Shown: piece after piece, positions 40,785-44,355 of the stretch
How the letters are laid out: the number at the start of each line of letters is the position of its first letter
Position numbering within the stretch: position 1 is the first letter of the stretch
Assembly: GCA_018650645.1 (NCBI GenBank)
Contig: JABIFP010000020.1
Location: 82,529-146,528, forward strand
DNA from: Candidatus Magasanikiibacteriota bacterium
GTDB lineage: Bacteria; Patescibacteriota; Patescibacteriia; Magasanikbacterales; UBA922
Length of the DNA: 64,000 nucleotides
Direction: 5' to 3'
Program-made: the position numbers and the translations under genes
Notes under the pieces: model-generated
The model's database searches: none
What the model was told of the DNA's origin: nothing
The model's input: the letters and a program-made list of their open reading frames with translations, nothing else

Positions 40785-40816
40785 AAAAACTACTCGTATG
40801 AGTGGTTTTTTTGTTG
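40785..40816 (+). terminator. Intrinsic terminator after rpmA (A-run, ACTACTC-GTAT-GAGTGGT, T7), copy 1 of a 32-bp direct repeat
   Basis: Hairpin plus TTTTTTT. The identical 32-mer recurs at 41809..41840. Confidence 0.6.
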
Positions 40817-40870: not shown

Positions 40871-41794
40871 ATGGAAGGAATTGTTCGCGAACAGCCCAAG
40901 GCACCACTTAGCCTGGAACAGCTTCAAGGAAAGACAGGATATGAGTTAAAGGGCCTTGCTACTGAGCACAAAGAAAATCCTGCGAATCTCTTCTGGCAAT
41001 TAGTTGCAGCCTCAGATGAATCTTCACTACACCGCAGATTTCCTCTTTCACTAATGGAACACGCAACACATTTGCTTCCCGACGGAAAAAAAGTTTCTGG
41101 GTTTGGAAATAATGACAGCGCAAGAAGAGCCTATTCTGAATTGCTTGATCGGGCCATGCCTGGTTCTGGTCACGATACAAAAAGTATTAGAGCTGAGGAT
41201 CCAAATCATTTTCCAGGTGATCAAAAATACTTGCCCCGATTAGGTAAATATACAAGAACTGAGCAGTTATTTGCAGGAAATCTAGTGTGGACTAGCAAAG
41301 CCCAAGATTTACGTGCGAGAGCCAATATTAAGCGAGGTACTGATACTGCCTCTGCTGCGGAAAAACTGGCAGCACAAGCTGAAAGCAATATACAAGAAAT
41401 AGATGAAACTCTTGGTACAGATGCAGGATCCTCCATTACGCAAGCCCTTGCAAAAGCTACTGAGCTTGCAGTATCACCGCGCAGTGAGCGAGACGTGATA
41501 CAGGCAAGCAGAATATTTGAGCATATTTCTCATACACTGACAGGGGCAATCAATTCTGACTTTGATTACGATGCTGCCCCGGGAACAACTCTCAAAAAGC
41601 ACCCTAAAGATCAGCTGAAAGACGCACTGTCAAAAGAGTGGCTTACTCAAGCCTCTGCTGGAACTACACAGACTGAACAATTACATTCAGCGGCTGAGAT
41701 AAGAGATGCACTGTTTGTCCTTGCAAAAGCACTTGACCAAAGAAGCCTTCAAGGACGAGATGGATTAACAGCTGAAATTGAACAAGCTACATAG
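40871..41794 (+). CDS. Hypothetical soluble protein (307 aa, hydrophilic, no TM or signal peptide), bracketed by the duplicated terminator
   Basis: Complete ORF. Composition slightly more G+C-rich than the host by eye. No recognisable motif. Confidence 0.5.
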   Translation: MEGIVREQPKAPLSLEQLQGKTGYELKGLATEHKENPANLFWQLVAASDESSLHRRFPLSLMEHATHLLPDGKKVSGFGNNDSARRAYSELLDRAMPGSGHDTKSIRAEDPNHFPGDQKYLPRLGKYTRTEQLFAGNLVWTSKAQDLRARANIKRGTDTASAAEKLAAQAESNIQEIDETLGTDAGSSITQALAKATELAVSPRSERDVIQASRIFEHISHTLTGAINSDFDYDAAPGTTLKKHPKDQLKDALSKEWLTQASAGTTQTEQLHSAAEIRDALFVLAKALDQRSLQGRDGLTAEIEQAT

Positions 41795-41808: not shown

Positions 41809-41840
41809 AAAAACTACTCGTATGAGTGGTTTTTTTGTTG
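41809..41840 (+). terminator. Second copy of the 32-bp rpmA terminator (direct repeat) after the 307-aa gene
   Basis: AAAAACTACTCGTATGAGTGGTTTTTTTGTTG identical to 40785..40816. Confidence 0.6.
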
Positions 41841-41869: not shown

Positions 41870-42295
41870 GTGAAACACGAACTCTTGAGGGATTCCATGC
41901 GAAATGTGCTATGGACGGCTCTCTTGATTGCCGTCTTTCGATTTGTGACGTATTCACAAGACCTACCTGAGGTACTGTTCTTTGCGGCTTCCTTTGTGGT
42001 CGTCATGCAGAGGATCCTCTATGAGGTGCAGCGCTCGGCAGAGTCGAAGAAGTATCAACGGTGGGCCATCATTGGTAGCTGGTATGTTCAAAACATCAGC
42101 GCCATGGCGGTGATCCTGGCGGCGATCGCCGGGCTCGGACACTGGGTGAACTTTGTGGACGGCCGATCGAACAGTGAACCCGACCCCGTGCCGCTCGCGC
42201 TGCTACTCCTGCTGTGCGTCGTCGGCCTGGCAGGCTTTCTGTCACTCGACCCAACCAACCCAACCAGCCACCTCGGTGGCAAGGAGGACAACTAG
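41870..42295 (+). CDS. Compositionally foreign (high-G+C) small 4-TM membrane protein; start is GTG 41870 or ATG 41897
   Basis: G+C-rich codons; four hydrophobic helices. GAGGGA precedes ATG 41897 by 4 nt. Own terminator directly after the stop. Confidence 0.5.
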   Translation: MKHELLRDSMRNVLWTALLIAVFRFVTYSQDLPEVLFFAASFVVVMQRILYEVQRSAESKKYQRWAIIGSWYVQNISAMAVILAAIAGLGHWVNFVDGRSNSEPDPVPLALLLLLCVVGLAGFLSLDPTNPTSHLGGKEDN

Positions 42296-42296
42296 T

Positions 42297-42324
42297 GGGC
42301 CGCGCATGCGGTCCTTTTGCTTTT
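42297..42324 (+). terminator. Intrinsic terminator GGGCCGC-GCAT-GCGGTCC followed by TTTTGCTTTT
   Basis: 7-bp stem with one G-U pair, tetraloop, and a T-rich tract immediately after the stop at 42295. Confidence 0.55.
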
Positions 42325-42342: not shown

Positions 42343-42798
42343 ATGAAATATTATATCCTTCTTTTAGCCATTTTCTTTACCTTTGGGTTTGGCTGTACAA
42401 AAACAGTAGCACCAACATATACACCTCCTGAGGGACAGGTGCACATTGATCCGCAAGAACAGGTAACGCTGGAAGGTTACCTTTCAGCATCCAACCAAGC
42501 AGCAGGAAAAACGCTCACTATTGATGAAGTACAAGTATCAAAGCATGCGTGGATTGCTATTTATGCTTCTGATAAAAACAGACCCGGCAAAATATTGGTA
42601 GCGACAGCCGTGTCCCCTGCTGACCGTGGTCCCGTTGCTATTGCATTACCAAACTCTTCAACCGTTGGCGAAATGTACTATATTCTCTTGCATGAAAGCG
42701 GCAGTGAACCAGGATTCAACTTTATGGAAGACGATTTTCCGAGTGATGCGACGAAAGCTACCAGTGTAGAGATTGTTGACAAGAATACACAAATATGA
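42343..42798 (+). CDS. Lipoprotein (signal peptide with lipobox ...FGFGC), unknown function
   Basis: MKYYILLLAIFFTFGFGCTK N-terminus. The supplied ORF 42214..42798 starts upstream inside the foreign gene; the ATG at 42343 gives a canonical lipoprotein signal. Confidence 0.55.
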   Translation: MKYYILLLAIFFTFGFGCTKTVAPTYTPPEGQVHIDPQEQVTLEGYLSASNQAAGKTLTIDEVQVSKHAWIAIYASDKNRPGKILVATAVSPADRGPVAIALPNSSTVGEMYYILLHESGSEPGFNFMEDDFPSDATKATSVEIVDKNTQI

Positions 42799-43107
42799 GA
42801 ACCTGTTCAGCAGGTGGGACCATTAACTCACACAGGGAGAGTAATTCAAGGAAACGCCTGCGGGAGAATTTCGCTTTTTAGAAACCCAAGGGTGACTAAA
42901 GCCTGTAAAGGTATAGCGAGAGAGCCTGGAGATTGGCGTCTAGCTCTAGAAAAGAGCATGCAGGTGAAAACCTGTAAGGTCGATGCGGTGAAATACCTCT
43001 CGGCGCATAAGATCTCCTTGCTTTAATCCTTCGAATAGGCCGGTTCGATGCCGGATGGTCCCCAATTCCCTTCCCCAGGTAGCTTGTGCTACCTGGGGAA
43101 TTTTTAT
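42799..43107 (+). ncRNA. Structured, probably non-coding ~300-nt region between the lipoprotein stop and a double terminator; candidate sRNA or structured 3'UTR of unknown family
   Basis: Multiple clean hairpins (CAGG-TGAAAA-CCTG; ATGCG...CGCAT; CCGG-TTCGATG-CCGG; 11-bp CCCCAGGTAGC-TTGT-GCTACCTGGGG). G+C above the flanks. The only ORF here (70 aa) shows no coding signal. Motifs GGAAACGCCTGCGGG and AGGTGAAAACCTGTAAGG faintly recall RNase-P-type elements, but no P4 strand is present. Confidence 0.3.
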
Positions 43108-43113
43108 ACCTCA

Positions 43114-43148
43114 TAAAAAACATCCGGTTTATCCGGATGCTTTTTATT
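43114..43148. terminator. Bidirectional intrinsic terminator (CATCCGG-TTTA-TCCGGATG flanked by A6 and T-run), preceded by a second plus-strand terminator hairpin at 43073..43107
   Basis: Perfect 7-bp stem; CTTTTTATT follows on the plus strand and a T-run follows on the minus strand. It serves the plus-strand RNA and the convergent minus-strand gene. Confidence 0.6.
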
Positions 43149-43166: not shown

Positions 43167-43541
43167 TTATTTTCTTTTAGAAGTCGACTTCTTTTGTGTT
43201 GTTTTTTTTGCCGAAGAATTTTTTTTCCGGCTTATTGTATTTTTTACTTTTTTTTCTAATTTACTGGCCAGTTTTCCAACAATAAACTTCTCAACCAGCC
43301 CGGTCATCATGGAGCTCATAACGCCCATGTTTTTGGAAACACCATCTACCTTTCCTCTCATATACTGAACGGCTTCATTGATGAGTTCAAGTTTGTGCGT
43401 GAGTGATTCTACAATGCGATTCGCGTTCTTCAAAATTCTTGCGGCTTCAAATAAAAGCCAGCAGAGAAATACTGTGAAAAATAGCACACACAGTGCAAGA
43501 GCAACGTACAACACGTCTTGACTCGAACTTACAATGTCCAT
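43167..43541 (-). CDS. Small protein with N-terminal TM helix, coiled-coil middle and Lys-rich C-terminal tail; unknown
   Basis: 124 aa; VLYVALALCVLFFTVFLCWLLF TM; C-terminus KKNSSAKKTTQKKSTSKRK. Confidence 0.4.
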   Translation of the reverse strand: MDIVSSSQDVLYVALALCVLFFTVFLCWLLFEAARILKNANRIVESLTHKLELINEAVQYMRGKVDGVSKNMGVMSSMMTGLVEKFIVGKLASKLEKKVKNTISRKKNSSAKKTTQKKSTSKRK

Positions 43542-43659: not shown

Positions 43660-44355
43660 ATGAAACATATTGTACTCCTTCTTGCTCTTGTCCTTATGGG
43701 GATGGGATGCCTATCTTCCGCAGAAACGCCCGCATCAGACACCATTAACAGCGCAACACTTCCTGTTAATGCTCAGCCGATGGCTTCTTCTACAGAAACA
43801 CCCCGACCAATAGAAGAACCAATTCCATCTGAACCCCCAACTTCTCCTCCACAAGACTTACCCGCAACACCAGTAGCTCCACCGCAAACAGGCTGCACAG
43901 AAGAAGCAAAAATGTGTGAAGATGGTACAGTGGTTGTCAGAACTGGACCAAATTGTGAATTTGAAGCCTGCCAAGATACACCTATACGTGCTTGCACTGA
44001 CGACCAACAATTCTGCGCTGATGATTCAGTACGCCCAAGAAACTTTGAAACCTGCGAATGGCTCGATTGCCCAGAAGAAGTTACGGTATCTATTTCTGTC
44101 ACAGCAAAAAATTGGGAATTTGTACCCGCACAAATCGAGGTTGAAAAAGGAAACACGGTAGAACTAAGCATCACCAGTATTGACGTTGATCACAGCTTTG
44201 CTCTTCCAGCGTTTGGTATTAATACAAAGCTCAGTCCAAACCAAACGTCAGTAGTCACCTTTACTGCTGATAAAACCGGCTCATTTCCATTTTCTTGCAA
44301 AGTCTTTTGCGGAGAAGGACATAAAGGAATGAATGGTGTGCTGATTGTAAAATAG
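43660..44355 (+). CDS. Secreted cupredoxin-domain protein with CuA-type ligand pattern (H...C-x3-C-G-x2-H-x2-M) and a Cys-rich N-terminal region
   Basis: Signal peptide. C-terminal HSFALP...FSCKVFCGEGHKGM matches the CuA site pattern of COX-II/NosZ-type cupredoxins. Eight Cys lie in the preceding ~70 aa. Confidence 0.55.
   Translation: MKHIVLLLALVLMGMGCLSSAETPASDTINSATLPVNAQPMASSTETPRPIEEPIPSEPPTSPPQDLPATPVAPPQTGCTEEAKMCEDGTVVVRTGPNCEFEACQDTPIRACTDDQQFCADDSVRPRNFETCEWLDCPEEVTVSISVTAKNWEFVPAQIEVEKGNTVELSITSIDVDHSFALPAFGINTKLSPNQTSVVTFTADKTGSFPFSCKVFCGEGHKGMNGVLIVK

What the first reader, a model, noticed from the sequence alone, without database searches (positions are those of the whole stretch)
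42799..43148. ~300-nt highly structured non-coding region ending in tandem terminators; unassigned RNA
After the lipoprotein stop there is a G+C-elevated stretch with no credible ORF; the 70-aa frame has no coding features. At least five clean hairpins are visible: CAGG-UGAAAA-CCUG; AUGCG...CGCAU; CCGG-UUCGAUG-CCGG (tRNA T-arm-like); and an 11-bp perfect stem. Two consecutive intrinsic terminators follow. No plus-strand gene lies downstream, so this is not a riboswitch leader. It is either a stand-alone sRNA or a long structured 3'UTR. Short stretches resemble RNase P motifs (GGAAACGCCUGCGGG; AGGUGAAAACCUGUAAGG), but the P4 strand GGAAAGUCCGG is absent. The UUCGAUG loop is tmRNA/tRNA-like, but no tag ORF or acceptor pairing was found.
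Basis: seen in the sequence. Interest (0 to 1): 0.55.

Follow-up and report, generated by a model that had tools for sequence, protein, structure and literature searches.

The report
Orphan RNA with tRNA-like ends
Just after a lipoprotein gene in a marine Candidate Phyla Radiation (CPR) bacterium lies a roughly 248-base RNA gene that has a complete tRNA-like acceptor/D/T domain, but whose anticodon loop is replaced by a 176-base branched domain; it fits no known RNA family, and no relative could be found to confirm it.

Summary
The hairpins, raised G+C, lack of coding signal and terminators are real. GGGACCAU (42816-42823) pairs perfectly with AUGGUCCC (43055-43062), directly next to the CCGG-UUCGAUG-CCGG T arm. 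A D arm (ACUC-ACACAGGGA-GAGU), U8, A14, G18G19 and A21 follow in textbook positions. An 8-bp bulged helix then carries a 176-nt four-armed insert where the anticodon loop should be.

This full tRNA-like arrangement occurred in 0 of 1200 shuffled windows. The plus strand folds with z = -3.8; the minus strand gives -1.0.

Rfam 15 and ARAGORN at default settings find no tmRNA, tRNA, RNase P RNA or group I intron. The tmRNA hallmarks are absent: G3:U70, an A discriminator and a recognisable tag. No artificial excision of the insert gives a canonical tRNA.

The host is a Candidatus Magasanikbacteria genome assembled from metagenomes. All nine retrieved contig copies cover the RNA in full or in part and are 100% identical. 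The nearest relatives (PheT identity 67% or less) lack the RNA at the syntenic site. Every search for homologues failed, so there is no covariation evidence.

Best reading: a new tRNA-scaffolded non-coding RNA matured by tRNA-processing enzymes. Its function is unknown, and confidence is moderate.

The parts
42801..42815 (+). Small hairpin ACCUG-UUCAG-CAGGU between the lipoprotein stop codon (42796-42798) and the RNA 5' end. It has no U tract.
   Evidence: Sequence. Inference: it would cap the 3' end of the upstream mRNA if RNase P cuts at 42815/42816.
42816..42823 (+). Acceptor-stem 5' strand GGGACCAU. It pairs 8/8 Watson-Crick with 43055-43062.
   Evidence: (pair probability 0.89 or more)
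42824..42843 (+). U8-A9 linker, D arm (stem ACUC 42826-29 / GAGU 42839-42; loop ACACAGGGA with A14, G18G19 and A21), then A26.
   Evidence: Adding a D arm with GG to the T arm plus acceptor closure lowers the chance rate from 0.10 to 0.003 per shuffled window. Also requiring U8, A14 and A21 gives 0 of 1200.
42844..42852 (+). 5' strand of the extended 'anticodon-arm' helix (AUUC-AAGG(A)). It pairs with 43027-43036, with C43032 bulged out.
   Evidence: The alternative partner CCUUG (43016-20) is used in the unconstrained MFE.
42853..43026 (+). Insert domain that replaces the anticodon loop:
- branched domain A (42854-42939), which includes a GUAA-capped hairpin at 42901-12;
- hairpin B (42943-57);
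- hairpin C (42959-76);
- hairpin D (42977-43015);
- single-stranded CCUUGCUUUAA (43016-26).
   Evidence: Constrained fold at -92.0 kcal/mol against the free MFE of -93.5. These are single-sequence predictions only.
43027..43039 (+). 3' strand of the extended helix (UCCUU-C-GAAU) and the 3-nt variable loop AGG.
43040..43054 (+). T arm: 4-bp stem CCGG/CCGG (G53:C61 present) and loop UUCGAUG (U54 U55 C56 G57 A58).
43055..43063 (+). Acceptor-stem 3' strand AUGGUCCC plus an unpaired C (discriminator). The next bases are AAU, so CCA is not encoded.
43071..43107 (+). Intrinsic terminator of the RNA/lipoprotein transcript: perfect 13-bp stem, 4-nt loop, then UUUUUAU.
   Evidence: I11. This hairpin accounts for the only notable Rfam hit (NsiR1, 32.8 bits, below its gathering score of 39).
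43111..43148 (.). Second hairpin CAUCCGG-UUUAU-CCGGAUG with an A run before it and a T run after it. It is a bidirectional terminator shared with the convergent 124-aa gene (43167-43541, minus strand).
42343..42798 (+). Upstream orphan lipoprotein gene (151 aa). It is probably co-transcribed with the RNA, because no sigma-70-like promoter was found between it and the RNA.

Best explanation
Bases 42816-43063 encode a ~248-nt non-coding RNA built like an engineered 'tRNA scaffold'. It has a genuine tRNA top half and core:
- a 12-bp acceptor/T stack in an 8/4 layout;
- a D arm and T loop able to form the elbow;
- U8, A14, G18G19, A21 and G53:C61.

The anticodon loop is replaced by a 176-nt four-armed domain carried on an 8-bp bulged helix.

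Proposed working (inferred, not shown):
1. The RNA is transcribed with, or just after, the lipoprotein mRNA and terminated at 43071-43107.
2. RNase P cuts at 42815/42816. This leaves the upstream mRNA capped by the 42801-42815 hairpin.
3. The 3' trailer is trimmed back to C43063, and CCA is added.
4. The tRNA-like domain provides processing, nuclease resistance and access to proteins that read the tRNA elbow and acceptor end. Aminoacylation is possible.
5. The insert domain carries the specific, still unknown, function.

In architecture the RNA works like tmRNA or a tRNA-scaffolded RNA. It is not a member of the tmRNA, tRNA, RNase P RNA or group I intron families.
For: - Perfect 8-bp terminal helix flush with a canonical T arm. 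D arm and tertiary-contact bases sit at textbook spacing.
- Chance rates per shuffled 64-kb window, both strands: 0.10 for T arm plus acceptor closure; 0.003 with a D arm containing GG; 0 of 1200 with U8, A14 and A21 and with the following helix.
- One hit of the D-arm level in 2.3 Mb of unrelated real DNA. It is the only such site in the window.
- Strand-specific stability: z = -3.78 on plus, -0.96 on minus.
- G+C of 0.496 against 0.424.
- A strong plus-strand terminator lies 8 nt after the discriminator.
- The cloverleaf-constrained fold costs only 1.5 kcal/mol over the MFE.
- No protein homologue for either long frame across the region.
- Single copy, not a repeat.
- Sequence 100% identical across the nine retrieved contig copies from different samples and sources (seven full-length, two cut by contig ends).
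- 8/4 acceptor branches exist in natural tRNAs (PMC5389517).
Against: - No homologue was found anywhere, so there is no conservation or covariation.
- The closest relatives (PheT identity 67%, 61% and 54%) carry other genes at the syntenic site and show no match.
- The neighbouring lipoprotein is itself an orphan. The whole block may therefore be young or dispensable.
- Expression, processing and CCA addition are all inferred.
- The criteria for the chance test were textbook tRNA features, but they were chosen after seeing the sequence.
- The interior helices rest on single-sequence energy predictions.
- The homologue searches were limited: one degenerate pattern per collection, and the metagenome collection did not even return the organism's own contigs.
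Confidence: 0.45

Rival explanations
1. It is a tRNA gene interrupted in its anticodon arm by an intervening sequence. This could be a self-splicing or otherwise excised intron, or an insertion that has turned the gene into a pseudogene.
For: - CPR genomes are reported to contain tRNA genes with group I introns that hide them from tRNA finders (PMC8172020).
- The acceptor, D and T arms are as good as in a real tRNA.
- ARAGORN at default threshold calls a tRNA for 7 of 3000 artificial excisions.
- A 7-nt stretch CUUUAAU (43021-27) next to the helix looks like an anticodon loop. The segment 42852-43020 ends in G.
Against: - No group I or group II intron match, even at E up to 10 on 257 nt.
- At 173-176 nt the insert is below the ~200 nt I recall for the smallest natural group I introns (own knowledge, not checked here).
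- No internal guide sequence lies near the 5' end of the insert.
- The base before the candidate 5' splice site is G, not U.
- Every excision gives a defective anticodon arm: a mismatch in the stem, G33 or A33 instead of U33, or pyrimidine at 37. Alternatively it gives an 8-bp stem, 3 bp too long to decode.
- The variable loop has only 2-3 nt.
- The insert is single copy in the 64 kb searched, with no terminal repeats or target duplication.
Confidence: 0.2
2. It is only the structured 3'UTR and terminator region of the lipoprotein mRNA. It would act in cis for stability or termination. The tRNA-like fold would then be either a simple RNase P punctuation site or fortuitous.
For: - It starts 18 nt after the stop codon with no recognisable promoter in between.
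- The lipoprotein gene and the RNA are both confined to this organism.
- No homologues were found.
Against: - A cis stabiliser does not need a D arm, a T loop and the tertiary-contact bases. Together these are not expected by chance (0 of 1200 shuffles).
- 250 nt with z = -3.8 is far more structure than a terminator needs. Separate terminators follow.
Confidence: 0.15
3. It is this lineage's tmRNA (ssrA) in a highly divergent form. It would be charged, enter stalled ribosomes with SmpB, and encode a tag.
For: - Same topology as tmRNA: the 5' and 3' ends form the acceptor stem next to a T arm; a long helix replaces the anticodon stem; a multi-helix body lies in between.
- It is followed by a terminator.
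- Short open frames exist inside, for example ...AVKYLSAHKISLL ending at UAA 43024-26.
Against: - The third acceptor pair is G:C (or A:U in the other register), not G:U.
- The discriminator is C, not A.
- No tag ends in the usual Ala-rich or hydrophobic motif, and no resume-codon context or PK1 was recognised.
- ARAGORN finds no tmRNA, even at 80% thresholds.
- No tmRNA family of Rfam scores at E up to 10.
- No smpB among the ten window ORFs of about 130-310 aa that were scanned.
Confidence: 0.05
4. It is a small protein gene: the 70-aa GTG frame at 42814-43026, or the 75-aa minus-strand frame at 42896-43123.
For: Both frames are open. The chance of a 70-codon open frame at this composition is a few per cent per frame (my estimate).
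Against: - No real homologue in 1.84 billion representatives, and no word-sharing candidate for the minus frame.
- No Shine-Dalgarno sequence.
- Gene callers did not call it on any contig.
- The frame runs through the tRNA-like helices.
Confidence: 0.02

Closest known systems
tmRNA (ssrA)
   Same: The 5' and 3' ends pair into an acceptor stem stacked on a T arm. A long helix stands in place of the anticodon stem. A body of a few hundred nucleotides with several helices lies between. It is a stand-alone gene with a terminator.
   Different: - No G3:U70, and the discriminator is C.
- It has a real D stem.
- No recognisable tag frame or pseudoknots.
- Only 248 nt.
- Not detected by ARAGORN or by any Rfam tmRNA model.
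Intron-containing bacterial tRNA genes (group I introns in anticodon loops, reported for CPR in PMC8172020)
   Same: Intact acceptor, D and T arms, with about 170-250 nt inserted in the anticodon arm. Standard tRNA finders cannot see the gene.
   Different: - No group I core by Rfam.
- The helix below the D arm is 8 bp with a bulge, and no excision restores a canonical anticodon stem-loop.
- The variable loop has only 2-3 nt.
Engineered 'tRNA scaffold' RNAs (a foreign RNA inserted in place of the anticodon loop so that the cell processes and stabilises it; own knowledge)
   Same: Exactly this design: a tRNA top half plus an extended anticodon stem that carries a structured cargo.
   Different: Those are artificial. 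I am not aware of a described natural chromosomal example of this size in bacteria.
Allo-tRNAs / 8/4 and 9/3 tRNAs (PMC5389517)
   Same: A 12-bp acceptor branch split 8/4 instead of 7/5.
   Different: Allo-tRNAs have a normal 7-nt anticodon loop and a long variable arm, and they decode codons. This RNA has neither feature.
Bacterial Y RNA-like YrlA and viral tRNA-like structures (bioRxiv 10.1101/312249 listed; details from own knowledge)
   Same: A tRNA-mimicking module (T arm, D arm, elbow) embedded in a larger non-coding RNA.
   Different: In YrlA the acceptor-like stem is closed and the RNA ends lie in the other stem. Viral tRNA-like structures sit at the 3' ends of viral genomes and use pseudoknotted acceptor arms.

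Membership tests
tmRNA | tRNA-like domain: the 5' and 3' ends form an acceptor stem stacked on a T arm with a UUCRA loop | tested here: met
   8-bp helix 42816-23/43055-62 flush with the CCGG-UUCGAUG-CCGG arm
tmRNA | G3:U70 wobble pair (alanine identity), A discriminator and a CCA end | tested here: not met
   The third pair is G42818:C43060 (A:U in the 7-bp register). The unpaired base after the stem is C43063, followed by AAU.
tmRNA | Internal tag reading frame with a resume codon after pseudoknot PK1, ending in a degradation motif | tested here: inconclusive
   Short frames exist (ENFAF*, AGENL*, AVKYLSAHKISLL*). None has the usual C-terminal motif. All lie inside predicted helices. No PK1 was recognised by eye. 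No pseudoknot predictor was available.
tmRNA | Recognition by dedicated detectors (ARAGORN; Rfam tmRNA covariance models) | tested here: not met
   ARAGORN finds nothing at default, 95% or 80% thresholds. No tmRNA family appears at E up to 10.
tRNA gene with group I intron | Group I catalytic core (P3-P9) detectable by covariance model | tested here: not met
   No Intron_gpI match at E up to 10 on 701 nt or on 257 nt
tRNA gene with group I intron | Removing the insert restores a canonical tRNA: 5-bp anticodon stem, 7-nt loop with U33 and purine 37, and a 4-5 nt or long variable region | tested here: not met
   3000 excision variants were tried and 7 were called by ARAGORN at default settings. 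All have mismatched stems or non-canonical loops.
tRNA (top half and core) | 12-bp acceptor/T stack, a D arm with G18G19, U8, A14, A21, T54-A58 and G53:C61 | tested here: met
   All are present at canonical spacing in the 8/4 register. 0 of 1200 shuffled windows reproduce the set.
Bacterial RNase P RNA | P4 helix strands and conserved regions CR-I to CR-V; match to RF00010/RF00011 | tested here: not met
No match at E up to 10. At 248 nt it is well below the ~330-400 nt I recall for bacterial RNase P RNA (own knowledge).
Allo-tRNA (8/4) | 8/4 acceptor branch together with a long variable arm and a decoding anticodon loop | tested here: not met
   The 8/4 branch is present. The variable region is only 3 nt, and there is no 7-nt anticodon loop (PMC5389517).
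Intrinsic terminator | G+C-rich hairpin followed by a U tract on the transcribed strand | tested here: met
   43071-43100 plus TTTTTAT, and 43121-43139 plus CTTTTTATT
Any conserved structured RNA class | Homologues in other genomes with compensatory base changes | tested here: inconclusive
   No homologue was found. Coverage of CPR DNA by the tools was narrow.

The most novel reading that the evidence does not exclude
A previously undescribed class of bacterial tRNA-capped RNA. It would be matured by RNase P and the CCA-adding enzyme, and charged by a non-alanine synthetase. A paired G at the 5' end opposite C, followed by a C-rich tail, recalls histidine identity. It could act on the ribosome as a tmRNA-like molecule, or use the tRNA module as a natural scaffold for a new functional domain.
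Probability: 0.15. Interest if true: 0.85.

Novelty: new variant of a known kind. Interest (0 to 1): 0.55.

Why it matters
tmRNA is the only widespread bacterial RNA known to combine a tRNA-like acceptor/T domain with a large non-tRNA body. A second, unrelated molecule with an even more complete tRNA core would show that bacteria reuse the tRNA top half as a general processing, stability and recognition module. It would also raise the question of whether it is aminoacylated and whether it enters the ribosome. CPR bacteria have reduced genomes and many divergent housekeeping RNAs, so unassigned RNA genes there are worth resolving. If it instead proves to be a tRNA gene with a non-group-I intervening sequence, it would point to an unknown tRNA splicing or fragmentation route in bacteria. 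The caveat is that it is so far seen in one species only.

Tried and rejected
**Known-family searches**
- Rfam at gathering thresholds on the whole window gave 0 hits. E-value scans of 701 nt and 257 nt gave only terminator-like noise.
- ARAGORN at default settings found nothing.
- ARAGORN at 80% thresholds with long introns drew a cloverleaf here. The same setting gives about 110 calls per 64 kb in real and shuffled DNA alike, so I discard it as evidence.

**Search for relatives**
- The nine contig copies retrieved for the same organism are 100% identical across the part of the RNA each one covers (seven full-length, two cut by contig ends). An rpmA look-up returned only the same species.
- Only a 46% PheT relative exists among the GTDB species representatives.
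- Six syntenic or related CPR loci show no match by nhmmer, blastn or my tRNA-like-domain scan, and no tRNA or Rfam hits.
- A degenerate two-anchor pattern in the metagenome contigs gave 3 hits, all chance matches inside G+C-rich coding DNA.
- Three patterns in viral contigs and a blastn search against phages gave nothing.
- I looked for spurious ORF translations of homologous RNA genes and found none.
- Homologues of the lipoprotein would have allowed a synteny search. Only the protein itself was found.

**Other checks**
- Neighbouring proteins against Pfam, PHROGs and NCBIfam: no smpB, and no phage or RNA-related genes.
- MITE or repeat origin: no second copy of the insert.
- A reading as a tRNA-Phe mimic next to pheST (a GAA triplet at the helix tip) was rejected. 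The discriminator is C, and the RNA is not in the pheST leader.

Full report
**Observation**

Its G+C is 0.496, against 0.424 for the window. The plus strand of 42810-43070 folds to -93.6 kcal/mol, with z = -3.78 and none of 200 shuffles as good. The minus strand is unremarkable at z = -0.96. The 70-aa GTG frame has no real homologue among 1.84 billion representative proteins. The 75-aa minus-strand frame has no candidate either. Gene callers left the stretch empty on every contig.

**What was missed**

In fact GGGACCAU (42816-23) pairs 8/8 Watson-Crick with AUGGUCCC (43055-62), with pair probability 0.89 or more. The 3' strand starts at the base right after the T stem CCGG-UUCGAUG-CCGG (43040-54), which gives a 12-bp coaxial stack in an 8/4 layout.

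After the 5' strand come:
- U and A, equivalent to positions 8 and 9;
- a D arm, ACUC-ACACAGGGA-GAGU, whose loop starts with A, contains GGG and ends with A;
- one A, equivalent to position 26;
- AUUCAAGG (42844-51), which pairs with CCUU-C-GAAU (43028-36).

Three bases (AGG) link that helix to the T stem. One unpaired C (43063) follows the acceptor stem. CCA is not encoded.

So every element of the tRNA top half and core is present. The anticodon loop is replaced by about 176 nt (42852-43027).

**Is it chance?**

I wrote a scan with textbook criteria. It finds this site and no other in the window on either strand. It finds none in the CPR relatives' loci.

| Criteria | Hits per shuffled 64-kb window (1200 composition-preserving shuffles) |
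|---|---|
| T arm plus acceptor closure | 0.10 |
| Adding a 4-bp D stem with GG in the loop | 0.003 |
| Adding U8, A14 and A21 | 0 of 1200 |
| Adding the following helix | 0 of 1200 |

In 2.3 Mb of unrelated real DNA there was one hit at the D-arm level. The criteria were fixed after I had seen the sequence, but they are standard tRNA features.

One caution applies. ARAGORN at 80% thresholds with long introns also draws this cloverleaf. That setting yields about 110 calls per 64 kb in real and shuffled DNA alike, so it is not evidence.

**Anatomy of the insert**

These are single-sequence predictions. With the cloverleaf enforced, the fold costs -92.0 kcal/mol against -93.5 unconstrained. The elements are:
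- a branched domain A (42854-42939) with a GUAA-capped hairpin;
- hairpin B (42943-57);
- hairpin C (42959-76);
- hairpin D (42977-43015);
- about 11 unpaired bases (CCUUGCUUUAA).

CAAGG (42847-51) can pair either with CCUUG (43016-20) or with CCUU-C-G (43028-33), so two conformers are possible.

**Transcription unit**

Only 18 nt separate the lipoprotein stop codon from G42816. They form a small hairpin without a U tract (42801-15). No sigma-70-like promoter was found there, so co-transcription and release by RNase P is the simplest inference.

A perfect 13-bp hairpin plus a U tract (43071-43107) follows 8 nt after the discriminator. The second hairpin (43121-39) has an A run on one side and a T run on the other. 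It also terminates the convergent 124-aa gene.

**Known families**

- Rfam 15 gives nothing at gathering score in the whole window. At E up to 10 it gives nothing relevant. The best hit, NsiR1 at 32.8 bits (below its gathering score of 39), is just the terminator hairpin.
- No tmRNA, tRNA, RNase P, SRP, 6S or intron model matches.
- ARAGORN finds no tRNA or tmRNA.
- The tmRNA hallmarks fail: the third pair is G:C, the discriminator is C, a true D stem is present, and there is no usual tag.
- For the intron reading, I excised every segment from 42841-42900 to 42989-43038 (3000 variants). ARAGORN at default settings called 7 of them. All have a mismatched anticodon stem or a loop without U33 and purine 37.
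- The natural helix is 8 bp, too long for decoding.
- CPR tRNA genes with group I introns are on record (PMC8172020), but no group I core is detectable here.

**Relatives**

PheT names the organism as Candidatus Magasanikbacteria. Seven contigs from different samples and sources carry the RNA full-length and two more carry part of it; all are 100% identical. The next PheT relatives are only 67%, 63%, 61% and 54% identical, and the best GTDB species representative is 46%.

In the three syntenic relatives with DNA available (L090, L095, L096), other genes occupy the place of the lipoprotein-RNA block. Nothing similar is found by nhmmer, blastn, my scan, ARAGORN or Rfam. The lipoprotein has no homologue at all.

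A degenerate two-anchor pattern returned three chance hits from the metagenome contigs. It did not return the organism's own contigs, which shows how thin that collection is for this lineage. Viral and phage searches were empty. No covariation test was therefore possible.

**Interpretation**

The sequence shows a complete tRNA-like domain that carries a large structured insert, on the plus strand, ending at a terminator. It belongs to no curated family.

Inferred steps are maturation by RNase P, 3' trimming and CCA addition. The tRNA module would give processing, stability and access to tRNA-binding proteins, and the insert would carry the function. I put this at 0.45.

| Rival reading | Confidence |
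|---|---|
| tRNA gene with a non-group-I intervening sequence, or a disrupted tRNA gene | 0.20 |
| Purely cis-acting 3'UTR | 0.15 |
| Divergent tmRNA | 0.05 |
| Small protein gene | 0.02 |

The remaining probability covers chance and readings I have not considered.

**Novelty**

The architecture is closest to tmRNA and to engineered tRNA scaffolds. Its 8/4 acceptor branch recalls the allo-tRNAs (PMC5389517). It fails the defining tests of each of these families, so I rate it a new variant of a known kind (RNAs with tRNA-like domains). Interest is moderate because it rests on one sequence from one species.

Noticed in passing
window 40785-40816 and 41809-41840: A perfect 32-nt direct repeat (a terminator-like hairpin plus a T run) brackets the orphan 307-aa gene at 40871-41794. 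Strain variants L098 and L007 have one repeat copy and lack the gene. This is a presence/absence cassette within the population.
   Followed up: partly
window 42000-42300: A patch of G+C 0.60-0.655 in a 0.42 genome lies inside the 141-aa hydrophobic ORF 41870-42295, which has no family hit. Relative L096 has a G+C-rich 78-aa hydrophobic ORF at the same place next to rpmA.
   Followed up: partly
window 42343-42798: The lipoprotein upstream of the RNA has no homologue except itself among 5.8 billion proteins. It has only a weak DUF7282 hit.
   Followed up: yes
window 1-64000: The whole 64 kb contains no tRNA gene and no Rfam family at gathering score.
   Followed up: no
window 43016-43036: A second T-loop-like heptamer UUCGAAU (43030-36) and a duplicated CCUUG / CCUUCG motif give CAAGG (42847-51) two alternative partners. 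This hints at a conformational switch at the base of the insert.
   Followed up: no
window 43660-44355: A secreted cupredoxin/CuA (COX2-like) domain protein sits alone between the RNA locus and pheT. Its best partial matches are to the NosZ and CoxB C-terminal domains. This is unusual for a CPR genome with little respiratory capacity.
   Followed up: no
method (window and control loci): ARAGORN with -ps80 and introns of 100-400 nt reports about 110 'tRNAs' per 64 kb in real and shuffled DNA. Calls made with that setting carry no weight.
   Followed up: yes
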